A stretch of 64,000 nt of DNA from Octopus sinensis (taxonomy: Eukaryota): positions 111,972,001-112,036,000 of the forward strand of contig NC_043002.1 in the NCBI RefSeq assembly GCF_006345805.1. The letters are read 5' to 3'. The notes under the pieces are model-generated. The model worked only from the letters and a program-made list of their open reading frames with translations, had not been told where the DNA came from and ran no database searches. Positions 24,980-63,500 of the stretch are shown one piece after another (position 1 is the stretch's first letter; every line of letters begins with the position of its first letter). A program made the position numbers and the translations under genes.

Positions 24980-25150
24980 TTTTTTTTTCTAGTTTCATCT
25001 CAGAGCTGCGGCCATGCTGATGCACCGCCGTTAATGTGCTATGCTTACTGCACCTAGGTTTCCCAAGCGGTCACCCATCTAAGTACTGACTAGGCTTGAC
25101 GTTGCTTAACTTCGGTGATCAGACGAGAACCGGTGCTTTCAACGTGATGT
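24980..25150 (-). mobile_element. 5S rRNA-derived SINE-like element (5S part 25042-25150, tail and poly(A) 24980-25041)
   Basis: Minus strand CACGTTGAAAGCACCGGTTCTCGTCTGATCACCGAAGTTAAGCAACG...AGTACTTAGATGGGTGACCGC is metazoan 5S-like and is followed by GGCGGTGCATCAGCATGGCCGCAG...GAAAC and an A run. Confidence 0.85.
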
Positions 25151-25151
25151 A

Positions 25152-25281
25152 GGCACAAGGCCCGAAATTTTGGGGGAGGTGGTCAGTCAATTAGATCGAC
25201 CTCAGTACGCAACTAATACTTAATTTATCGACCCTGAAAGGATGAAAGCCAAAATCGACCTCGGCGGAATTTGAACTCAGA
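25152..25281 (-). mobile_element. SINE family C fragment
   Basis: Nin-like segment TTTATCGACCCTGAAAGGATGAAAG. Confidence 0.75.
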
Positions 25282-51890: not shown

Positions 51891-52085
51891 GGGAGCCGGC
51901 AGAATCGTTAGGATGCTTAGCGGCATTTCATTCGTCTTTATGTTCTGAGATCAAATTTCGCCGAAGTCGACTTTATCTTTCATCATTTCGGGGTCGATAA
52001 AATTAGTACCAGTTGAGTACAAGGGTCGATGTATTCGACAATCCCCTCCTTCGAAATTACTAGCCTAGTGCTAAAATTTGAAATC
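51891..52085 (+). mobile_element. Diverged SINE family C
   Basis: CTTTCATCATTTCGGGGTCGATAAAATTAGTACCAG. Confidence 0.75.
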
Positions 52086-52443
52086 AAAATTAAAAATGAA
52101 GTCCCTTGTGGACGTGACTAACAGACTGTAAAACACTCAAACACTTAGCCGATTTTTCATTGTTCTTAGCGGCCAAAGTTCATTGTTTAGACTCTACTTC
52201 CGACTAATATAAGTGCCTTAAATGTACTGCATTTCCGGTTGAAGGATTATGATCGTGTCCGAATATAGGCTTTACACTGGTTCTTTCCTGAGATATTTAA
52301 CTTAACCGGCAGTGGTTATGCGCTAAATGCTAAGTGGACAAAGGTAAGTAAATATATATTCCACTTAGTAAATATATATAATTATTCTACCACACATGTG
52401 TGTATGTATGCATATATATGTGTGCGTGTATACATACATTCAT

Positions 52444-52444
<1 letters not shown>

Positions 52445-52535
<91 letters not shown>
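52445..52535. repeat. (GATA)n microsatellite
   Basis: Direct reading. Confidence 0.97.
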
Positions 52536-52536
<1 letters not shown>

Positions 52537-52717
52537 CAGAGAGATAGTTAGATAAATGGATATAGATATATATACATCCACACACACACCATATCTATAT
52601 ATATATAATACATATCTCTACATATATATAAATACACACACACACACACTCACACACAAATACACACAAGTATTTATACATATAAAGTAAACATTATATC
52701 TATGTATGTATGTGTAT

Positions 52718-52765
<48 letters not shown>

Positions 52766-52941
52766 TTATACATGCATATATTTATATATATATATATATG
52801 TATGTTTGTATGTATGTATGCATATGTGTGTGTGTGTATGTGTGTGTGTAGAAGGTTGAAAAGGAACACACGAGTTGATATGTATAAGGAAAATAAGACA
52901 AGGTAGAAAATGCTAAAATAATTTTATCATGAAGAACATTT

Positions 52942-52976
52942 TAGTACCGGTTTCAGTCATTGAGACTTTTTCAACA
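52942..52976 (-). ncRNA. Degenerate hammerhead motif, U3-A8 core variant
   Basis: G-UUGAAAA-AGUC(UCAAU)GACU-GAAACCGGUA|C; stem I reduced to about 1 bp. Confidence 0.5.
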
Positions 52977-53452
52977 TAGAGTAAAGCATGAAAAACAATT
53001 AAATTTTGGAAAAAGGAAATGAAATATTTTAAAAATATTTCCATAGTTTTCAAATGCAAGGGACCTTTCTACATTTTTCTGTCTGTCTTTCTCTCTTTTT
53101 TACCCTTGTGACGGCTTGTGAAGGTAGTAGGTAGTAGCAGTCCTACATAAATATTTAATATGAGTCCTTGGCTTTGATTGTTTAAGCAGTAGTATAAGCC
53201 GAGGAAGGAGGCGAAGAAGAAGAAGAAGAAAAAGGATGAGGAAGAGGAGAAAAAGAAGAGAAAGTATAATATAGATATATATGTGTGTGTGTGTGTGTGT
53301 GTCTGTACATAGGTGCTACTTTGGTGTGTGATCTACAAGGGAGATTACTTTAGGTTACTTTTTAGTTTACTTTTGTGTTAGAGCTACTTCTGTGATCTAC
53401 GTAAGCGAATTCATTTTGGTAGGTGATCTACGTGTTTATTTCAATTATTATA

Positions 53453-53839
53453 TCTTTATATATAAAAGTGAGGTTGTGTGCTGTCTGTCTCCTACGATTT
53501 AGATTCCTAACTACTCCCACATTTTGCGGTGCAGTTTAACCAAAACCGGGTATCTTATAGTCGGGATTCATATCGAGCCCTTCTGGGTATTAGCGCGCGT
53601 CTACGATTTAAAAAAAATTTACCATCAATTTTTCCCATTTTTAATGCATTTTTGGCATATATAAATGAAGTAACTCTCTAAAAATTTATTATTAAATCTC
53701 AGAACGTAAAAAGCTACAGTAACACCACCCCCCCTTTGTGGTTAGCCATATCGAGATGGCTATTATACTTTACATCTCTAAAAATGCTTATATAGTTATT
53801 TCCCTTACAAACCCGAGCAACGCCGGGCGATACTGCTAG
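53453..53839 (+). mobile_element. Non-autonomous Helitron (subtype 2)
   Basis: A|TC...hairpin-CTAG|T. Confidence 0.85.
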
Positions 53840-54176
53840 TGGTTATTAAAATAGTAAATAATTTAAAAAGTAACTTAAAGCAATCTCCCTTGTAAATCAC
53901 ACGCCAAAGTAGCACATATATATGTATACATATAATGTTATTTCTTTAATTAAAGCATAATGTTTTAAAGTATATTCTGCTTTCTATGTATATTTCGTCT
54001 GAGGGGTTATGTCTTTCGAAAAGGAAAATAAGGTGTTTTGATTGTCAATATCTCGACAGTTGCCTTTTCAATGAAACCTATATTACTTTATATTCTTTTA
54101 GCTCTACTTAATGAGCGGTAATTTTAGTTTTGTATAGGAAATTCATTTCCTTCTATTTTCTTCTTATATATACATT

Positions 54177-54282
<106 letters not shown>

Positions 54283-54945
54283 TATGTATATATGCATATA
54301 TACATACATATATGTACATAGATATATATATTTATATATACATGCATATATGGGTACAGGGCGTCAAAATAACGTGAACAAAATGAAAAACGAGAACATA
54401 AAAAATAAAACATGGAAAACAAACTTTTTTCGGAGAACGAAAGAAACAAATAGAGAAACAAGACAAGCAATATAAAAAACAATCCCTTCATCAGTTGTCC
54501 CCTGTTTTGTCTACTCCGCGTTTCGTAGGTTGGGACAAGACGTGACTTCGTTAAAACAGTCCTTCAGCAAAGAAAATTAAATAAAATTTGGGATTTTTGC
54601 GGAGGGTTAAAGTGGTAACAAAAATAGGACAGTAACAGCAAAACAGTAAACGGTGAAGTGGGGAACGCTGGAGAAAGGAGCTGTGACAAAAGACAAGCAA
54701 AAGTAGATCTTATTTCTTGTAAAACGACAGGAAAAAAGAACAATAGCCGCTGGATACGTGTGACAAACGTGAGAGTCAAGGAGGAAAAGGGAGAGAGAGA
54801 GAGGAAGAAAAAGAGAACGGTGAAAGGGAGGAGAAGGAAACAGAAAGAAAGAAGAATAGTGATAAAGGGAGAATAGAGAGTGTAGAGTGCGCATCTGAAT
54901 TATTAAGATAAAACTTACTTGGAAATGGATACGTGACGTTCGGTC

Positions 54946-55046
<101 letters not shown>

Positions 55047-55515
55047 GACTGTTTACGGAATCCACTCAGCAGTTAGTATATACAGACATGGAACGCTTTC
55101 ATATCTGAGTTTCTCGATAGTGATTTATTTGATACTCGTCATCGTATCAATTGTTACAAGCATATCTAATAGAACTTTTTTTACCGTTCAAAAGGAGCGA
55201 CATACTAGCCTTAATTTGAGACATATAAATAAAAATGTATATATATGCTCGTTCACTATATTTCTTTTACTTTATCACATTACCTCTCTAATCTCATGTC
55301 CTCTGAATTACGCATGCTATATCTTCCCCACCTTTTTCTTTTCCCTCTCTATATTTAACTGTCAAGTTATAAATACCTTTCTTATAAGCTGCTTACTCCC
55401 ACCCAGTCAGTTTCCCACCCACGTAGTTATCTATCTAATGTACTAGTCTTCATATATTCTTTCCTCTATTTCACCTCTCTCACCTCAGTAACCTTTTTTC
55501 AGTATTAAGTTTATA

Positions 55516-55550
<35 letters not shown>

Positions 55551-55807
55551 ACGTACGTACGTATGTATGTATACACTTACATTTACGTTAACATAATTTG
55601 TTGGGGATGAATAAAATCAGTTACAGAATTCTTATTTAATCAGCATTTATAATTTTAAATATCTCTACATCCCCCTGTTGACAGTTTTGAGTTCTTAATA
55701 TTCGTTCTTACAATGTACTTCTGTACAGTAACTTGATTACACATGTATATAGATATGTGTGTGTGTGTGCGTGGTCGCGTGCGTAAATTCTCTGTGCGTG
55801 TCTATGT

Positions 55808-57375
55808 CCTTCGTGGCTTGGCTTCGCTGACGAACATTAGGAAGTCTGTTGTCCGCGTCGTCTGCACGGTCGTTCGTGGCTGATAAGGCTGACGTGGAAT
55901 CGACATATCCAATTGCAATGATGACAGGGGTTTGGTTGTCCAGAATCTGATGATGCAGCTGCATTATTTTTTCGTTTCTAACGAGAGGCACTGAGAGAGA
56001 GCTGAAAGGAGGAAACAACAACGCTGATGGTATGGCGCCAAGCAAAACGGTCAGCTGTTAGAGTGGACCACTCTCGATAATCAATGTTACAAACGCTAAG
56101 GGACTGCTTCAGGCAATACTTGTAACACTTCTTTGGTGCCCCCTGTTGCAGTGACCAGTGGTTAGCTCACCGTACCTGATGATCTTGGGTAGGCGGTGGT
56201 CTTTCATCCTGTCAACATGTCCTGCCTAACGTAGTCGTGTCTCATATAAAGTGGTTTCCAGGCTAGTGACCTTTGCTTGCTTCAGGACTTCAGTGTTGGT
56301 GATGTAGTCGCTCCAGTAGATGTTAAGCACGGTACGAAGGCAGCGTTGTTGACAACTTCAAGGAGCCTAAGATGACAGAGGTAGGGGACCAAGGGCTCAG
56401 AGCCATAGACTCTAACTTTTGTGCTGATCTTAAGATGCTTATTATTCCATATTCGCTTGTGCAGTCTGCGAAATACTTTGTTTGCTTTGTCAATTTCTAT
56501 GTCGATATTCGCATCTAATGAAATGGTACATCCAAGATAAGTGAACTTCTGAATCGACTTCAGTTCTGTTTGGGCAACGGTGATTTGTGACATCCTCTAC
56601 TCTTCCCGAGGAGCTGGTTGGTGTAGGACTTCAGTCTTTTTCAAGCTTACTTCCAGCCCTAAGAGCTGGGCGGCCGCTGCAAAGCAGGATGTGATGCACT
56701 GCAGGACTCGTGTGCGACAAGTGCGGCATCACCTGCAAAGAGGAGGTCCTAGATCAATTGCTCTTGAGTCTTGGTGCGGGCCTGTAGGCGCTGGGGATTG
56801 AAAAGACTGTCGTCCAGACGGTACCTGATTTAGACGCCTGCTCACAGTGTCGAACGCTTTTGTCAGATCGACAAATGTTACAGACATTGGTTTCTTTTGC
56901 TCCCGGAACTTTTCTTGGAGCTGCCTGAGAACGAAAACCATATCTGTTGTGCTCCTGTTGACTCTGAAACCACATTGGCTTTCTGGAAGATGGATGTTCG
57001 GCGATGGACAGAATAAGTCTGTTGAGGAGCAATCTTGCTAGAACTTTTCTTGCAGTGTAAAGCAGGGTGATCCCCCGTTGTTTGAGCAGTCCAGCTTTTC
57101 CTATTTGTTTTTGTATAGCGTAATGATGACAGCATTATGGAGATCTTGTGGCAGCTTGCCCTGTTCCCAGCATGCAACGAGGAGCTCATGGAGTTTAGCA
57201 TGCCCCCTTCCCATCGTTACAGGGGTTAGAAATTTGTGGTAGTGGACGTAAACAGGTGCTTCGGCCTGCGCGATGGAGTTTTAAGGTGAAGTGCAGTCTG
57301 TGCAGAACTGACCCCACCTGGGGCTCCCGTGGCCCAGCAAGCTGGGACGATGACAGAGAGGTCCTCGTGTCGTAG
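55808..57375 (-). mobile_element. Decayed, internally deleted RTE-clade LINE (second family)
   Basis: FVLRQLQEKFREQ...FVDLTKAFDTVSR, KFTYLGCTIS, GHVDRMKDHRLPK, C-terminal CHHC...SHERPC knuckle, 3' GCGAAGCCAAGCC. Confidence 0.85.
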
Positions 57376-57465
57376 GTTTTATATATATATGCTATATGTG
57401 TCAAAATAATTGTCGTGGTTAATATAAACTCCTGTATATTCCATCTTCCGTCTTTCATTTTTTCC

Positions 57466-57510
<45 letters not shown>

Positions 57511-57675
57511 CAAATTGAGATAGGGGTTGTAAATGCACCCTCCATGGATAACATATATGCAATCTACCGCTAGTTAAGTACCCAACAAAGTTAATACATA
57601 AATGTAATAATTGCGATGCAATTAATTCATTTACTGTATTATATGGGCAAAGGTAAAATGTTTTACCACAAATTC

Positions 57676-57998
57676 ATAATACAAAATAAGAAAATGGAGA
57701 AATACATCGAAATCAAATATCGATTACCAGATAATACCCAATCACATACTTTATTAAACCACCACATAAGAAACTATAAGGTTAAACATAATAAAGTAGA
57801 ACAAAATAGTGTACATAAAGGAGTAATATGATACAATAAGTACAATATAACATTACTCCTTTATGTACACTATTTTGTTCTACTTTATATGTGTGTCCTT
57901 ACATTTCTTATGTGGTGGTTTAATAAAGTATGTGATTGGGTATTATCTGGTAATCGATATTTGATTTGGATGTATTTCTCCATTTTCTTATTTTGCAT
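57676..57998. repeat. Fold-back palindrome between (TA)n tracts
   Basis: Outer arms 57676-57772/57903-57998; inner hairpin 57791-57887. Confidence 0.9.
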
Positions 57999-57999
57999 A

Positions 58000-58085
<86 letters not shown>

Positions 58086-58190
58086 TATGTATGTATGTAT
58101 GTATATATGTGATATATATATATTCTACATATATATACATACATATATATACATATATATATAATTATAATATGTATGTATATATATATA

Positions 58191-58245
<55 letters not shown>

Positions 58246-58254
58246 TATATAATA

Positions 58255-58286
<32 letters not shown>

Positions 58287-58729
58287 ATATATATATATAT
58301 ATATGTATATATATATGTATATATAATTAGAGATTTCTGGAGAGAGTGAGAAAGCGATTCATCTTATCTAACGTTAGCAAAAGCAATCAATGCGCGTAAC
58401 ACGAGAGTGTGGCTTGATACTGCGTATATCCGTTTTCGCTTCCTTTGAATCACAGATAGGGAAGCTGAAAAGGGAAGAACACTTCCGACTGTGAAGATTA
58501 ACAGTTTCCTCTTGTTCATTTCACTGCATCTGCATTTATGAGGCTGGGCTAATAACACCATTAATCACCACTGTATAACATTTGAGTGGGCGACACCTGA
58601 GGCACTGACAAAAGAATACACATGCACCCATCACCATCACCATCACAACTACTAGTGGCTACTATCGATATTGACATCATTATCGACATCAACATCATCG
58701 TTATTTTTCATCGATGCTTATAACGAAAC

Positions 58730-58813
58730 TGATGATGAGGTTGAGGAGGAGGAGGAGGATAATGATGATGATGACGATGATGACGATGATGGTGGTGGTG
58801 GTGGTGGTGGTGG

Positions 58814-58850
<37 letters not shown>

Positions 58851-59034
58851 CTTTACTGTCGTCATTGTTACCATCTTCATCGGAATACTCATTAACATGA
58901 ACATTATCCATATCGTTATCATCACATTCCTCATCATCATCCTCATCATCATTCTCTCATCATCATCATCTTCATCATCATCATCATCATCATCATTGTT
59001 GTCATCGTCGTTGTCATCATCATCATCATTACCG

Positions 59035-59088
<54 letters not shown>

Positions 59089-59216
59089 CTATCATCATCG
59101 TCGTCATCGTCATTGTGATCATCGTCACCATCATCATCATCATCACCACCACCATCATCATCATCATCATCATCATCACATCATCATTACCATCATCATT
59201 GTCGTCATCGTCGTTG

Positions 59217-59262
<46 letters not shown>

Positions 59263-59360
59263 TACCATCATCATTGTCGTCATCGTCGTTGTCATCATCA
59301 TCATCATTACCATCATCATCATCATCATCATCACCATCATCATTGTCGTCATCGTCGTTG

Positions 59361-59393
<33 letters not shown>

Positions 59394-59592
59394 ATCATCA
59401 TTATCATCATCATCATCATTATCATCTCATCAGTTTCGTTGTTATAAGCATCGTCGGCATCACCGTCAACCATCCTTCCATTATTCATCATTGCTGTAGT
59501 TAATATCAACAACAACTACTAACGCCATCACCACTATCACCACCACCACCACAACAACAACAACAACAACGACAACTACAACAACAACAACA
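58730..59592. repeat. (GAT)n/(CAT)n/(CAA)n trinucleotide repeat field
   Basis: Direct reading. Confidence 0.95.
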
Positions 59593-59732
59593 TCAATGAC
59601 AAAAAGTCCAGCTGCACTAACAGGCATAACTAATGAAAACATCCATCTTGACATGACAGATCGACAAATTAGTTTATTCAGTTGAAATTATTGAGGTTCA
59701 TTTATTACCTGTTACCTCACCACCACCAGTAG

Positions 59733-59894
59733 CGCCGACAGAGAGCTCCTTCAAATGCAGCCGTTGTATGCGGGACTGCCACTTCCGTGTAGACCTGTAC
59801 AGTTACAGCAGACACTGCACCACCATCTGCAGTTGACTCGATTACTTATGGCGCAGATCCATGGCCTCTCGAAACCGACGGATGCCTGCTACTA
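59733..59894 (+). mobile_element. 3' end fragment of the RTE family seen at 35170-35335
   Basis: Aligns with 35174-35335, including the tail. Confidence 0.88.
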
Positions 59895-59924
59895 TATATA
59901 TATATAGATCGTTCCTTCTCCTAT

Positions 59925-59959
59925 GTTTCCGACGAAGAGCTCCGCTCGAAACGTTAAAC
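59925..59959 (+). ncRNA. Type I hammerhead motif, C4 core variant
   Basis: GUUU-CCGACGA-a-GAGC(UCC)GCUC-GAAACGUU|AAAC; downstream sequence is shared with 37631-37750. Confidence 0.72.
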
Positions 59960-60053
59960 CCTCCTTCTTCCCTTCTTTCCTGAGCGTCCAATAATACTAT
60001 ATTTGTTCCACGTCCTCGTGTTGTTGTTTTTTTGTGTTTTCTTGTTTGGATTA

Positions 60054-60089
<36 letters not shown>

Positions 60090-60255
60090 AAAGTTGGTTT
60101 GTGAAAGCACGTGGGGGAATATATAGAAAATAGTAAAGAGTGAAAAAACTACAGAAGGCTTAAATGTTAAAAATATATATATTTGCGTCAATATGTCTGA
60201 AGAATATTAGAAAATCTTTAAAAAAAATTTTTTCTCTTATAATGACATAATTTAA

Positions 60256-60294
60256 AAGAAAGACCGGTTTCGCGTGTAGCTTTTCAAATTTCTT
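60256..60294 (-). ncRNA. Type I hammerhead motif, U3-A8 variant
   Basis: Reverse complement of 60318-60356. Confidence 0.68.
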
Positions 60295-60317
60295 GCGACG
60301 TTTCTTGATAACGTCGC

Positions 60318-60356
60318 AAGAAATTTGAAAAGCTACACGCGAAACCGGTCTTTCTT
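60318..60356 (+). ncRNA. Type I hammerhead motif, U3-A8 variant with one extra U before the core
   Basis: AAGAAA-u-UUGAAAA-GC(UACAC)GC-GAAACCGGUC|UUUCUU. Confidence 0.68.
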
Positions 60357-60484
60357 TTTAATTATGTCATTATAAGAGAAAAAAAATTTTTTTTTAATTT
60401 TCTAATATTCTTCAGACATATTGACGCAAATATATATATTTTTTAACATTTAAGCCTTCTGTAGTTTTTTCACTCTTTACTATT

Positions 60485-60519
<35 letters not shown>

Positions 60520-60520
<1 letters not shown>

Positions 60521-63500
60521 GCAATTGCTGTCTGACCAACCCGGGAGTGAATTCCCTGACGTCCGTTCACATGCCTCGGCCGGCGAAAGGAGGCCGACGC
60601 TATCCTGTCGCCTCCGCACTTCTCTTCTTACGCTTCCTCTTCTAGCCAGTCCCTTGACCACTGATGTCATGGCCCTCACCCCCCCCCCTGCTCATTCCCA
60701 CACACCCCTGATCTCAAAGATCACCTCACTTCACTCCATGTCGAAATCTACCACCCACCTGGGTGGGCCCCTTGCAAGTTGTGATCTTCTGAAACTAGGA
60801 AGCACTTTCTCTTTCTCTTTTCTACAATCATCATCCGATGAAGCGACAATCCTACGAACATCCAAGACATGACGCAACATTCCATCCACAGAAATGTTGT
60901 TTTTGGAATTCACAGCCGTCACTATTCCTCTGTCCCACTGAGTTGTACAGCGTGCCTTTGGTGGCTTCACACAGACTTCATCTCCAACCTCCACAAAGTC
61001 GGGCCCTCTCTCTCAATTCCCTCCAAACGGCCATCCGGCCCGGTCCATAATCTACCATCGAGAGATACGTCCCCTGCCGGTAATGTATTACATCCACTGC
61101 AAGTCGTCTCCAGTTGTGCTCTACCGAAGTGTTTCCCTACTCATGCACACCCGGAGCAGGGTTGATGGATTGACACCTGTCGCAGTTCCCAACCACCTTT
61201 TGGATGCTCCGTCTGTTAACGTCGGCGTCAATCCTCCTGACGAGATACAAGCTCCTATCCATGCCAATATGATGCATGGCATGCAGTCTCCTTAGCTCGG
61301 AGTCCTTCAACTGACACACAGCGGCTACCCCTTGCTTCGATTCTTGCGGCTCCTCTGTCCAAGCTCTTTTTTCACCCTGGTTAGAGCATCTGCCTTGTTT
61401 CTCTCTGAAGGCACAAAGACCACATTCAGCTTCAGGCCGAACTCGCCAATCAGCTCCCCTAGAATCCCTAGGTGGTGCTTCATTAGCATTTCCGCAGCCC
61501 CTTTGGTTCGCACCCTCTCCTCGTCGGTGATCACCGATCCTTCCCAGCCAAGCACAGTAGCCAAATCCGTCCGAATTTCGATGGAGTGCAACCCCCATTT
61601 CAAGGCCAAATTCACTCCCCTCAGTACCGCGTCATTGAAGTGGTTGTAGTCATCTGCTTTTCGAAGCCAGGCGGCATCCTCCAGTTCGGTACCTCCGATT
61701 TCTGACACAACCCCTATCGCGATGCTACTAGCATCACACCATACGGTCCCGTTATCCGATTTGGGCACATGCCAGTTCCCTCTGACTGGGCCTTCCGCTC
61801 TCACCCCCTCCAGGACTTCCTGCATCATCTCCACCATCCGCTCTCCTACCTTGTCATTTCAGTTCTCCCCTCCTGTTTGTCTTTTGCTGTAACTGCATGC
61901 CGTATGCATCAACCCCGCGATCGGGTAATGACCTACTAATTTCCCCCACATGAAGAACAGTTCTCTCCTGATGACGTTGGTACCCAGCTCCGGGATCTCG
62001 TTCTCCCTACGAAACACCAACTCGCATGTTCTATCTCTCTGAAGCTTAAGCCCCAGTGCAGCTCCTCCAGCCATTGGCTCCGGTGGCTTCGCAATCAGCC
62101 CTAATTTCTTCAGATGTCTCACAACCTCTGTGGTAGGCATTACGGTCTCATCCACTAGGATGCCATCTATGTAGGAATTGGTGGCCCTTCTTATCTTTTC
62201 CCAGGATGGATTTGAGCAATGTCGCCATGATCTTCGACGCAGAATTCAGCCCAAAACCCAGCCTTGTCAGACAATATGTCCGGCCCTTGTGTCGCACCAG
62301 TTTGTACCGCCACAGTTTGTCGATCACATGGAGCTGCAAATATGCCGACTTCAAGTCAACCATTGTCACTGCCTTAGTCGACTTCCTCCATAAATGCGGC
62401 GTCCCATCGCAGACGTCGGTCGCCTCACCACCTATGTGGCTCGATACACGGCCGTTCATCGCCCGAAAGTCCAGTACCGATATAATTTTGCCCTTGTTGA
62501 CTGCACCACTGCCATTAGATGTAACACTCCGCTCACCACCTCCTCTCTCCACAAAATAAAGACACCTTCCTTAGTCCACTTCTCTACCTTTTCTTCAAAC
62601 TCGCTCTTGGCGTGTCCTTTCAGGGTATGGTGGAAGCAGCTCACCTTGTTCTTCAGTGTTGGGATCCCTCTTTCCAGCGCCACTCTATCGTCCATCGCTG
62701 ACCATCGAACGTCGCCCGAAAATCCTTGTCTTCAATGGCGTAGGCAGTGCAGCTCCTCGTGGGGCTCTGCTCCCGCTCACAATCTTGACTCACGGCGCAC
62801 GACACCTCCACGGCACCAGACGAAACCACGTCTCCTCCACTACTGACATATCCGAAGCGGTCGATCGCGTCAATCCCCATCACCCCGTCAATCCCGTATA
62901 GCACGGGGGCGATCACGATCGCCCGAAGCCTTAGCGTTATGCCTCTCACCGCTATATCCACATCGTTGCTACCCTTGCATTCTATTTCGCTGCCGTCGAC
63001 AGCCCGAACGCTACTCGTCCCCTTTCGTTTCTTTATCCTACTCGGGGTCACGAGAACCATCGTGCAGCCCGTGTCCACGAGGGCCTTGAACGGGTTTCCC
63101 CACACCACGACCTCAACTACAAGCAACGATTTCACCAACGCTTCTACTCGTTCGCGGTTTGAAAGGCAACAACTTCCCCGAGGCCTTTTCCCTGGCTACA
63201 ATCTCCCTGGCTACAGTTTGTTTGCACCAGTAGCAAACCGGTCCGGGCTCCGCGCAATCCATCGACATGTGCGGTCCTTGGCACTTAAAACACCGGCATG
63301 TTAACGGCCGCTGTCGATCCACAGCCTCTTTTCGTCTTTCACTGTTTTGTGTCAACACGCATGCTTGAACAATGAGCTCGCTCATCACCATTTTGTTGCC
63401 GCCTGGCAACTGTTGTAGTCGCACCGACACGTCGTCGGGAAAGTCATTCACAAAGACCAGTCGCGCTACTTTCTCAAGTCCCTCACCGGTGAGACCAGAC

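What the first reader, a model, noticed from the sequence alone, without database searches (positions are those of the whole stretch)
60121..60492. Perfect cruciform with two divergent U3-A8 hammerheads next to its centre
Seen: about 180-bp arms and a 7-nt loop; each arm carries UUGAAAA-GC(UACAC)GC-GAAACCGGUC starting about 8 nt from the loop. A separate family at 52942 also has UUGAAAA with a different stem II. Inference: this is a second, independent 3-8 covariation. The fold-back apex lies just upstream of the ribozyme, consistent with self-primed second-strand synthesis at the element end. Read-through transcripts would form long dsRNA.
Basis: partly seen in the sequence, partly recalled or inferred. 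Interest (0 to 1): 0.75.

Follow-up and report, generated by a model that had tools for sequence, protein, structure and literature searches.

The report
Back-to-back Penelope retroelement stump insertion
This near-perfect DNA palindrome is two head-to-head stump copies of the tail end of a Penelope-like jumping gene, each carrying that family's small hammerhead motif in an already published variant form; it is an ordinary kind of insertion, likely made when both DNA strands primed a short copy.

Summary
The palindrome is real in the assembly: arms 60119-60302 and 60310-60494, a 7-nt centre, 1 mismatch plus 7 gap columns in 188. It is near-perfect, not perfect, and its flanks are not mirrored. 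[quoted passage not shown] Copies are 5'-truncated at many points, sit in (TA)n, and carry a 33-nt "tail" on one arm only. This is the published anatomy of PLE insertions.

The motif UUGAAAA-GC(UACAC)GC-GAAACCGGUC fits the PLE minimal type-I hammerhead. Its U3-A8 core was already reported in 2014. This genome holds 7,505 such motifs against 44 for the control pattern.

The apex is not an element end. It is the junction of two truncated copies, and only 1 of 27 unselected copies ends within 30 nt of the motif. Among symmetric palindromes, however, apices pile up just upstream of the hammerhead (53, 32, 14, 12 loci per successive bin) and avoid its interior (2 loci).

Read-level confirmation and ribozyme activity remain untested. 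This scan has noted the same pattern in other genomes. Verdict: a new member of a known kind, of low to moderate interest.

The parts
60058..60085 (.). left part of the (TA)n target microsatellite; TRF calls (TA)15 at 60058-60087
   Evidence: copies of the family elsewhere are likewise flanked by (TA)n, (GATA)n or (GA)n
60086..60118 (-). 33-nt PLE 'tail' extension, present on this arm only; in sense it reads TCCCCCACGTGCTTTCACAAACCAACTTTCTTA
   Evidence: read. The same extension is on exactly one arm in 14 of 15 inverted pairs by pattern; the 15th, L020, shows a shortened tail on one arm. It is on 15 of 30 central arms by my reading.
60119..60302 (-). left arm: the last ~184 nt of the PLE 3' UTR, with sense on the - strand
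60256..60294 (-). left hammerhead motif (helix I strand, U3-A8 core, 2-bp helix II, GAAA, palindromic CCGG, C17, helix I strand); the predicted cut lies between 60262 and 60261
   Evidence: read; an exact mirror of the right motif
60303..60309 (.). 7-nt junction filler TCTTGAT. With the two preceding T's it repeats TTTCTTG of 60289-60295, so it looks like a short templated insertion.
   Evidence: read. This exact junction was found at no other scored locus: one search scored 40 of 1219 candidates and the best other locus was 93% identical.
60310..60494 (+). right arm: the last 185 nt of the PLE 3' UTR, ending CTATTTTCTATATAT, without a tail
   Evidence: (97-98% identical copies; 2027 first-look candidates, 40 scored)
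60318..60356 (+). right hammerhead motif: AAGAAA(U) helix I strand 60318-60324, UUGAAAA core 60325-60331, GC/UACAC/GC helix II 60332-60340, GAAA 60341-60344, CCGG 60345-60348, U16.1 60349, C17 60350 (predicted cut after it), UUUCUU helix I strand 60351-60356
60495..60517 (.). right part of the (TA)n target microsatellite
52944..52974 (-). hammerhead motif of a second PLE-type family (UUGAAAA-AGUC-UCAAU-GACU-GAAACCGGUA); an old copy whose helix I no longer pairs
   Evidence: the same stem II type recurs across the genome

Best explanation
The 376-bp near-palindrome is a head-to-head pair of severely 5'-truncated copies of the 3' end of a Penelope-like retrotransposon (PLE) sitting in a (TA)n microsatellite, each arm carrying the element's minimal hammerhead motif with the published U3-A8 core; it was likely made when the element's protein nicked both strands of the target, primed a short cDNA on each, and the two cDNA 3' ends were joined.

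Shown here:
- The identity of the arms as PLE 3' ends.
- The one-sided tail, the microsatellite target and the variable inward reach of the arms across copies.
- The motif class and its abundance.

Inferred:
- The two-cDNA route.
- The 7-nt centre is filler from that join.
- The short arm length reflects an RNA or cDNA end just upstream of the hammerhead.
- The hammerhead itself played no part in making the palindrome.
For: **1. The arm is the end of a longer coding element.** Copies extend up to at least 2.2 kb inward. They encode reverse-transcriptase motifs and then a CX4CXXC linker and a GIY-YIG-like block. Pfam gives RVT_1 at E = 2.3e-5 and GIY-YIG at E = 0.0029, both below the curated cut-offs. 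A 268-aa piece finds 157 proteins at E <= 1e-5 among 1156 candidates. Two of them that I scanned, P0001 and P0004, carry RVT_1 above cut-off followed by a C-terminal GIY-YIG, which is above cut-off in P0004 only.

**2. The PLE anatomy of PMC8557442 (passages) is met.**
- 5' truncation occurs at many points.
- An inverted 5'-truncated copy adjoins in 15 of the 30 loci fetched.
- A 33-nt tail sits on one arm only.
- The flanks are (TA)n.
- The hammerhead lies about 70 nt after the stop codon and about 145 nt before the end.

**3. Head-to-head is the rule.** By my reading of the first 100 places listed, 21 of the 22 neighbouring motif pairs within 6 kb are '- then +', 1 is '+ then -' and 0 are on the same strand.

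**4. The two arms mostly end independently.** Inward reach is 159-1240 nt. The tail-bearing arm is the longer one in 4 pairs and the shorter in 7 of 14. This fits two cDNAs better than one folded cDNA.

**5. Published in vitro work supports the route.** In PMC11167929 (main text read) a PLE protein cleaves and extends both strands. It starts reverse transcription at two internal sites whose spacing gives the tail. Hammerhead mutants do not change insertion.

**6. The two arms of a copy likely come from one template.** In six dispersed palindromes of a sister subfamily, variants private to one copy appear in both of its arms (alignment columns 36, 49, 79-80, 94-95). The central base faces either way relative to the tail, 4 against 2.

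**7. The motif class is supported.**
- 7,505 genome matches against 44 for the control.
- Helix I pairs better than with shuffled partners. Mean contiguous pairs are 2.11 against 1.14 +/- 0.20 (maximum 1.81 in 500 shuffles), or 4.21 against 2.54 +/- 0.21 if one bulge is allowed, over 57 distinct variants.
- Different families use different helix I and II sequences: CAG/CUG, AAGAAAU/AUUUCUU, GAGAAAU/AUUUCUC, CACGUG/CACGUG; and GC/GC, GU/AC, GGUC/GACC.
Against: - No read or contig was shown to bridge this apex. The Logan contigs laid are about 50-70 nt pieces and none spans it. The raw-read run X22 laid 0 reads, and the exact-match retry did not complete.
- The window's own hammerhead is weak. 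Helix II has only 2 bp and helix I needs a bulged U beside U3. Its minimum-energy fold is not the hammerhead and is no better than shuffles (-3.8 kcal/mol, z = +0.96). Rfam gives no hit.
- Nothing here separates two joined cDNAs from one cDNA that copies itself back in the symmetric cases. Arm ends lie within 17 nt of each other in 4 of 14 pairs, more often than independent truncation would suggest.
- The own copies have frameshifts and stops. Their RT and EN Pfam scores are below cut-off. No phylogeny was built.
- The window's two arms share no private variant, so common origin from one template is not shown for this copy.
Confidence: 0.8

Rival explanations
1. A single-cDNA fold-back, as the first reader proposed and as Arkhipova et al. 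2013 proposed for PLEs. One target-primed cDNA stops just upstream of the hammerhead. Its 3' end then pairs back on itself or switches template onto itself, and it is copied back to the start, giving a mirror image with a short loop.
For: - The window's arms end within 2 nt of each other around a 7-nt centre.
- 85 loci have the two cores 60 nt or less apart.
- Many centres fall on short self-complementary words such as ACGT, AAATTT and TCGA.
- Copy-private variants are mirrored in both arms.
- PMC3846280 (passages) reads palindromes at inverted pLTR junctions as self-priming.
Against: - In 10 of 14 pairs the arms differ in length by 88 nt or more, and either arm can be the longer one.
- The tail sits on one arm only. 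This needs two different start sites, which is simply explained by two priming events (PMC11167929).
- Copying back along a target-primed cDNA should run into the flank, yet the flanks are not mirrored: 69 of 190 columns match. The (TA)n would hide a short run-on.
- Loop-less perfect centres cannot be hairpin turns, but they fit two 3' ends annealing.
Confidence: 0.3
2. The palindrome is a copy of a palindromic master: a hairpin-shaped, SINE-like non-autonomous element that is transcribed and reverse-transcribed as a whole.
For: - The same centre recurs at dispersed loci. CTTGTGACAAG or its complement is at 7 of the 50 loci listed, and six of them have different flanks.
- Some palindromic units lie in tandem arrays.
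Against: - The window's junction (TCTTGAT) was found nowhere else among the 40 scored of 1219 candidates.
- In the recurrent-centre subfamily, private variants are mirrored in both arms and the central base flips relative to the tail. A master copied as a whole would pass on arm-specific changes instead.
Confidence: 0.07
3. A fold-back or MITE-type DNA transposon with ~185-bp terminal inverted repeats and an internal deletion.
For: - Inverted arms have variable spacing between them.
- The flanks are (TA)n, which could pass for a TA target.
Against: - There is no fixed inner boundary of the repeat. Each arm is simply a longer or shorter piece of one RT-EN coding sequence read towards the same outer end.
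- Many copies are single arms truncated at different points.
- The two outer ends differ by the one-sided 33-nt tail.
- No transposase was seen.
Confidence: 0.02
4. An assembly or long-read chimera artefact, in which a fold-back read was mis-assembled.
For: - No read or contig bridging the apex could be shown.
- PMC8557442 notes that such PLE structures trouble assemblies.
Against: - The flanks are unique and not mirrored (69 of 190 columns).
- The arms differ by 1 mismatch and three indels.
- One arm alone has the tail.
- 85 other loci have the same architecture with different centres.
Confidence: 0.03

Closest known systems
Insertion units of canonical endonuclease-positive Penelope-like elements: pLTR, adjoining inverted 5'-truncated copy, 30-40-bp tail (Craig et al. 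2021, PMC8557442; Arkhipova et al. 2013, PMC3846280)
   Same: - RT followed by a C-terminal GIY-YIG nuclease
- heavy 5' truncation
- an inverted copy joined head to head
- a 33-nt tail on one end only
- a (TA)n target
- a hammerhead near the 3' end
- a CX4CXXC linker before the nuclease, as described for the Neptune and Nematis clades
   Different: - Here nothing is left but the two inverted stumps; there is no ORF and no direct pLTR.
- In my reading of 22 neighbouring motif pairs none was in direct orientation, whereas the papers describe partial tandems as typical.
- The clade was not placed by a tree.
Minimal type-I hammerheads of metazoan PLEs, including the U3-A8 core variant found with the Schistosoma mansoni Cercyon element (Cervera and de la Pena 2014, PMC4209133)
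   Same: - the same core with U3 and A8
- G10.1-C11.1
- a palindromic 15.2-16.2 (CCGG) that would let two copies pair as a dimer
- thousands of copies, mostly solitary, or in pairs on opposite strands 100-700 bp apart
- families with compensatory changes
   Different: - Helix II is 2 bp here, against 7-8 bp in the Schistosoma families.
- There is no unpaired base between A9 and 10.1.
- The window's subfamily has an extra U between helix I and U3.
- U3-A8 is the dominant form in this genome (7,505 matches, against 272 for C3/G8 in the same helix III setting).
Animal non-LTR retrozymes: tandem hammerhead repeats giving circular RNAs, proposed to derive from PLE pLTRs (bioRxiv 10.64898/2026.07.22.740005, abstract only read)
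   Same: A short non-coding piece of a PLE end with a hammerhead. The same genome also holds a C3-G8 family in ~357-nt head-to-tail arrays.
   Different: This locus is an inverted pair, not a direct tandem. One strand therefore carries one sense and one antisense motif and could not release a unit by two cuts.
Fold-back elements and MITEs (DNA transposons with long terminal inverted repeats)
   Same: A hairpin-forming inverted repeat with variable inner spacing, and AT-rich flanks.
   Different: - The arms are truncated retroelement ends of variable length.
- The outer ends are unequal because of the tail.
- There is no transposase.

Membership tests
Canonical EN+ Penelope-like element (insertion unit) | Reverse transcriptase domain in the element's single ORF | tested here: met
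   RT motifs are read in copies L031 and L032. RVT_1 gives E = 2.3e-5 at 24.6 bits, below the 29.6 cut-off, in the decayed copy. Relatives P0001 and P0004 pass the cut-off. Telomerase-like placement of the RT was not tested.
Canonical EN+ Penelope-like element (insertion unit) | GIY-YIG endonuclease C-terminal to the RT | tested here: met
   The own copy gives GIY-YIG at E = 0.0029 and 18.3 bits, below the 22.6 cut-off. P0004 scores 26 bits, above the cut-off, at residues 661-748 of 752. P0001 scores 20.4 bits, below it. The strings IIYVIKC and DYVGST are read.
Canonical EN+ Penelope-like element (insertion unit) | Variable 5' truncation with a common 3' end | tested here: met
   Homology to L003 starts at many different points between 438 and 1509 and ends at the same outer terminus. 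In an unselected sample the upstream reach ran from 10 to 1500 nt or more.
Canonical EN+ Penelope-like element (insertion unit) | Adjoining inverted 5'-truncated copy (inverted pLTR) | tested here: met
   15 of 30 loci have a '- then +' partner within 1.5 kb. By my reading, 21 of 22 neighbouring pairs within 6 kb are '- then +'.
Canonical EN+ Penelope-like element (insertion unit) | 30-40-bp tail extension on one end of the unit | tested here: met
   A 33-nt tail is on exactly one arm in 14 of 15 pairs. The 15th has a shortened tail on one arm. In the window it is at 60086-60118 only.
Canonical EN+ Penelope-like element (insertion unit) | Direct pLTRs from partial tandem copies | tested here: not met
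   There is no direct repeat at this locus, and 0 of 22 neighbouring pairs were on the same strand. The papers call pLTRs 'direct or inverted', so this is not disqualifying.
Hammerhead ribozyme, type I, minimal PLE form | Conserved core C3-U4-G5-A6-N7-G8-A9 ... G12-A13-A14, with positions 3 and 8 able to pair | tested here: met
   The core reads UUGAAAA ... GAAA, with U3 and A8 replacing C3 and G8 and all other core positions kept. The genome holds U3/A8 7,505, C3/G8 272, U3/G8 388 and C3/A8 334 matches, with controls of 44, 55, 111 and 67.
Hammerhead ribozyme, type I, minimal PLE form | Helix I closing directly on position 3 and on the base after H17 | tested here: inconclusive
   The window's subfamily has AAGAAA/UUUCUU (6 bp) only if the U next to U3 is bulged. 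Sister subfamilies pair 7 bp without a bulge. Across the 57 variants the pairing exceeds every one of 500 partner shuffles, but the variants are related.
Hammerhead ribozyme, type I, minimal PLE form | Helix II closed by G10.1-C11.1 | tested here: met
   The helix is GC/GC, only 2 bp, around the 5-nt loop UACAC. Variants GU/AC and GC/GU keep the pairing.
Hammerhead ribozyme, type I, minimal PLE form | Short palindromic helix III (15.2-16.2) that allows a dimer, and H17 not G | tested here: met
   A-CCGG-U followed by C17. The same GAAACCGGU is present in all the families counted.
Hammerhead ribozyme, type I, minimal PLE form | Match to the curated covariance models | tested here: not met
   There is no Rfam hammerhead hit at the gathering score in the window, nor at E <= 10 in 52000-61500. 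Minimal PLE hammerheads lack helix III and so may escape these models.
Hammerhead ribozyme, type I, minimal PLE form | Self-cleavage after H17 | not testable with these tools
   This needs a bench assay. The hints are weak. At least two loci among the 13 have arms that start exactly at the predicted cut. The monomer fold is not hammerhead-like.
Non-LTR retrozyme | Head-to-tail tandem repeats, each with a hammerhead on the same strand | tested here: not met
   The two motifs lie on opposite strands, and no direct repeat is present.
Fold-back or MITE DNA transposon | Terminal inverted repeats of fixed extent with equal ends and a constant target duplication | tested here: not met
   The arms vary from 159 to 1240 nt, the ends are unequal, and the interior is RT-EN coding sequence.

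The most novel reading that the evidence does not exclude
The stump palindromes are not random debris. They are run-off products of a discrete RNA that begins 0-30 nt upstream of the hammerhead, at a start site or processing site inside the pLTR. That RNA is copied from both nicked target strands and joined through tiny self-complementary words, so each landing builds its mirror half anew. Stumps that keep this start site would then form a self-propagating, SINE-like parasite of the PLE. The upstream edge of the hammerhead would mark the 5' end of the PLE's working RNA, in molluscs as in the fish and shark genomes noted earlier by this scan. That would give a first testable role for the motif's position.
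Probability: 0.3. Interest if true: 0.55.

Novelty: new member of a known kind. Interest (0 to 1): 0.3.

Why it matters
As a single locus it does not matter much. It is a dead-on-arrival double stump of an abundant retroelement, and both its architecture and its U3-A8 hammerhead core are in print.

Three by-products are of some use to people who work on Penelope-like elements:
- This 2.7-Gb genome is a case where the U3-A8 core is the dominant form (7,505 motifs). It sits beside a canonical C3-G8 family and an amplified U3/G8 subfamily, which makes a natural series for testing what the 3-8 pair is needed for.
- Symmetric palindromes have their centres piled up just upstream of the hammerhead and almost never inside it. 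This points to a discrete RNA or cDNA end there.
- Copy-private variants mirrored in both arms suggest that the mirror half is made at each insertion. This bears on the unsolved question of how PLEs finish integration.

Tried and rejected
**Read-level check of the apex**
- One search listed 24 runs; none is on record as RNA (no RNA holder listed).
- laid X1, X2, X3 and X22 at 97% likeness. Only short contig pieces of the repeat family were laid. None spans the apex together with a unique flank.
- X22 raw reads laid 0 reads (about 3 in 100 of the run was read). This result is therefore no test either way.
- An exact-match lay on 60262-60350 was asked seven times and never answered.

**Rfam**
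- There is no hammerhead hit. The E-value list is dominated by chance microRNA-like matches to (TA)n and to the hairpin itself. One is RUF6-5 at 51 bits against a gathering score of 70; I take it as spurious.

**Pattern searches**
Shorter anchors were used instead.
- The anchor counts have limits. They need exact 10-mers on both arms. The downstream anchor fits one subfamily only. Some loci are tandem or recurrent copies. A few rows are not family members. The bins are therefore a rough profile, not a census.

**Copy-level checks**
- The window copy has no private variant shared by both arms, so the mirrored-variant argument rests on the sister subfamily.
- In one search, 3 of the 30 loci had no relative in the sample and were dropped. 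The extents it gives are lower bounds.

**Readings considered and rejected**
- A DNA transposon with long inverted repeats, an assembly chimera, and a retrozyme monomer (see rival explanations and membership tests).
- The equal (TA)15 calls on both sides are not a clean target duplication, because 7 nt of the right run belong to the element's own end.

**Not attempted**
- I did not try to name the organism.

Full report
**What is there.**
- Window 60119-60302 and 60310-60494 are inverted copies of one another around the 7-nt centre TCTTGAT.
- The arms differ by one mismatch and seven gap columns in 188. All the indels lie in A/T runs. The inner 49 nt on each side are exact mirrors.
- As single-stranded DNA the stretch folds at -193 kcal/mol, against -34.6 +/- 3.8 for shuffles.
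- The flanks beyond the (TA)n runs are not mirrored: 69 of 190 columns match.
- Each arm carries TTGAAAA-GC-TACAC-GC-GAAACCGGTC, reading away from the centre.
Rfam's hammerhead models do not see the motif.

**What the arm is.**
- The right arm is a high-copy repeat in the window's own genome of 2.7 Gb. There were 2027 first-look candidates. The 40 that were scored are mostly 97-98% identical.
- In 15 of the 30 loci fetched the arm has a partner in '- then +' order, at very different distances.
- Laid against the longest copy, both arms always start at the same outer terminus (...CTATTTTCTATATAT). They run inward for different lengths, 159 to 1240 nt, before meeting head to head.
- Single copies are cut off at many different points on the inner side.
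- The inward sequence is coding. It holds reverse-transcriptase motifs, then a CGRSNCATC (CX4CXXC) linker and a GIY-YIG-like block, a stop codon, and about 70 nt later the hammerhead. About 145 nt after that comes the terminus.
- Pfam gives RVT_1 and GIY-YIG below cut-off in these decayed copies. A 268-aa piece finds 157 relatives. The two I scanned have RVT_1 followed by a C-terminal GIY-YIG. The named relatives are from bivalve molluscs, or are mislabelled as their symbionts.
- One arm of each pair, and only one, continues for 33 nt (TCACCCACGTGCTTTCACAAACCAACTTTCTTA) beyond the terminus. This holds in 14 of 15 pairs by pattern, and the 15th has a shortened version. In the window this tail is at 60086-60118.
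- The flanks are (TA)n, (GATA)n or (GA)n.

**Comparison with print.**
- Craig et al. 2021 (PMC8557442; passages) describe exactly this for Penelope-like elements:
  - heavy 5' truncation;
  - an inverted 5'-truncated copy adjoining;
  - a 30-40-bp tail on one end;
  - a microsatellite bias that includes (TA)n;
  - a CX2-5CxxC linker in some clades;
  - hammerheads in the pLTR.
- Cervera and de la Pena 2014 (PMC4209133; whole text) describe the following:
  - minimal type-I hammerheads in PLE pLTRs;
  - a U3-A8 covariation in the Schistosoma Cercyon element, with about 1,300 further hits;
  - pairs of motifs on opposite strands 100-700 bp apart;
  - a palindromic 15.2-16.2;
  - low activity in vitro.
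- In the held library only that paper contains 'U3-A8' together with 'hammerhead'.
- Frangieh et al. 2024 (PMC11167929; main text) show that a PLE protein cleaves and extends both target strands. They also show that reverse transcription starts at two internal sites whose spacing is the tail, and that hammerhead mutants do not affect insertion.
- Arkhipova et al. 2013 (PMC3846280; passages) read palindromes at inverted junctions as self-priming.
- The locus is therefore a member of a known kind.

**The hammerhead reading.**
- TTGAAAAN{6,24}GAAACCGGT occurs 7,505 times in the genome, against 44 for the reversed control.
- Several stem II families are present: GGUC/GACC, GC/GC, AGUC/GACU and GU/AC.
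- In the same helix III setting, C3/G8 occurs 272 times (control 55). This count includes a family in ~357-nt tandem arrays and a family with CACGUG/CACGUG helix I.
- U3/G8 occurs 388 times (control 111). Many of these belong to one amplified subfamily.
- C3/A8 occurs 334 times (control 67). Most look like single changes of U3-A8 families.
- Over 57 distinct variants, helix I pairs better than with shuffled partners, and different families use different helix I sequences.
- This supports the fold as a class. The families are related, so the counts are not independent events.
- The window's own version is weak. Helix II has 2 bp, there is a bulged U beside U3, and the monomer fold is neither hammerhead-like nor better than shuffles. 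Activity is untested.
- The U3/G8 subfamily suggests, as the 2024 paper does, that an intact core is not needed to spread.

**Where the apex lies.**
- In a sample chosen by the motif alone, 27 of 30 loci could be evaluated. Only 1 of the 27 copies ends within 30 nt upstream of the core, and the others reach 82 to 1500 nt or more. The window's short arms are therefore a minority form, and the apex is not an element end.
- Among symmetric palindromes there is structure. I used exact 10-nt core anchors on both arms and binned the gap between the two cores:

| Gap between the two cores (nt) | Loci |
|---|---|
| 0-30 | 53 |
| 31-60 | 32 |
| 61-90 | 14 |
| 91-120 | 12 |

- Only 2 loci have the apex inside the hammerhead.
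- An anchor downstream of the cut site, which fits one subfamily only, gave 13 loci against 2 for the control. At least two of them start exactly at the predicted cut.
- Part of the peak is recurrence. By my reading of the 50 loci listed, the centre CTTGTGACAAG or its complement is at 7 of them, and GTGACGTCAC-type centres are at about 7.
- Many centres sit on self-complementary words (ACGT, AAATTT, TCGA), and some have no loop at all.
- Six dispersed copies with the GTGAC centre form their own subfamily. Variants private to one copy are present in both of its arms, and the central base faces either way relative to the tail, 4 against 2. This argues that the mirror half is made at each insertion and is not inherited from a palindromic master. 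Arm-to-arm conversion is not excluded.
- The window's junction itself is unique among the loci scored. Its filler repeats a nearby TTTCTTG.

**Mechanism.**
- I commit to the following route. The PLE protein nicks both strands in (TA)n and primes a cDNA on each, one from the distal start site (giving the tail) and one from the proximal site (no tail).
- Both cDNAs end early, here about 15 nt upstream of the core. Their 3' ends are then joined with a few filler bases.
- Shown here are the anatomy, the one-sided tail, the independent arm lengths and the mirrored variants in a sister subfamily. Taken from print is the extension of both strands and the two start sites.
- Inferred is that this locus arose this way, and that the cluster of centres reflects an RNA or cDNA end at the upstream edge of the hammerhead.
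- The fold-back of a single cDNA remains a live rival for the symmetric cases.

**Reality of the locus.**
- I could not show a read across the apex (and the unanswered retries).
- The unmirrored flanks, the indels between the arms, the one-sided tail and the 85 similar loci with other centres make an artefact unlikely. The long-read check is still owed.

**Earlier notes of this scan.**
- They report the same things in fish and shark genomes: palindromic mini PLE insertions, centres differing between copies, and 5' ends at the upstream edge of the hammerhead.
- I used them as leads. My searches test the same points on this genome, and they agree in part.

**Verdict.** This is an ordinary PLE double-stump insertion with a published hammerhead variant. 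The apex profile and the mirrored variants are modest mechanistic leads.

Noticed in passing
window 25042-25160 (-): A 5S ribosomal RNA gene (Rfam RF00001, 86.6 bits, full length), the only Rfam match at the gathering score in the window.
   Followed up: no
window 52944-52974 (-): A second U3-A8 hammerhead motif from another family (stem II AGUC/GACU, A10.1-U11.1, H17 = A). Its helix I no longer pairs, and the copy runs into a (CA)n/(TA)n tract. The same family is common in the genome.
   Followed up: partly
G000:C1:182078660-182079399; C2:188530505-188531246; C4:158033750-158034646 (not in the window): A canonical C3-G8 minimal hammerhead family (CTGACGA-GAGG...CCTC-GAAACCGGT) lies in head-to-tail arrays with a ~355-360-nt period, sometimes preceded by one inverted unit. 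The layout is retrozyme-like.
   Followed up: no
G000, many loci, e.g. C1:73171815/73171880 and C1:83020293/83025673: An amplified subfamily has U3 with G8 (TTGAAGA-GCTAACTGC-GAAACCGGT), often in '- then +' pairs. This suggests that spread does not need the 3-8 Watson-Crick pair.
   Followed up: no
G000:C4:55774003-55774046; C25:18526744-18526787 (L087, L088): Perfect palindromes whose arms begin exactly at the base after the predicted cleavage site (…GAAGAAA|TTTCTTC…). This would be expected from run-off on a hammerhead-cleaved RNA, but the cases are few.
   Followed up: partly
G000:C3:156440857/156441634; C22:10185260/10186153; C4:21213160/21214030/21214900; C18:38957222/38957673; C6:61364117/61365167: Palindromic stump units are repeated in tandem with periods of about 450-1050 nt and identical centres. 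Some palindromes were therefore duplicated after they formed.
   Followed up: no
window 58730-59432: Long trinucleotide arrays: (TGA)40 at 58730-58850 and (ATC)172 at 58918-59432, just upstream of the insertion. They explain the run of chance snoRNA-like Rfam rows.
   Followed up: no
window 60058-60087 and 60488-60517: TRF calls exactly (TA)15 on both sides of the insertion. Seven nt of the right run belong to the element's own end, so it is not a clean target duplication.
   Followed up: partly
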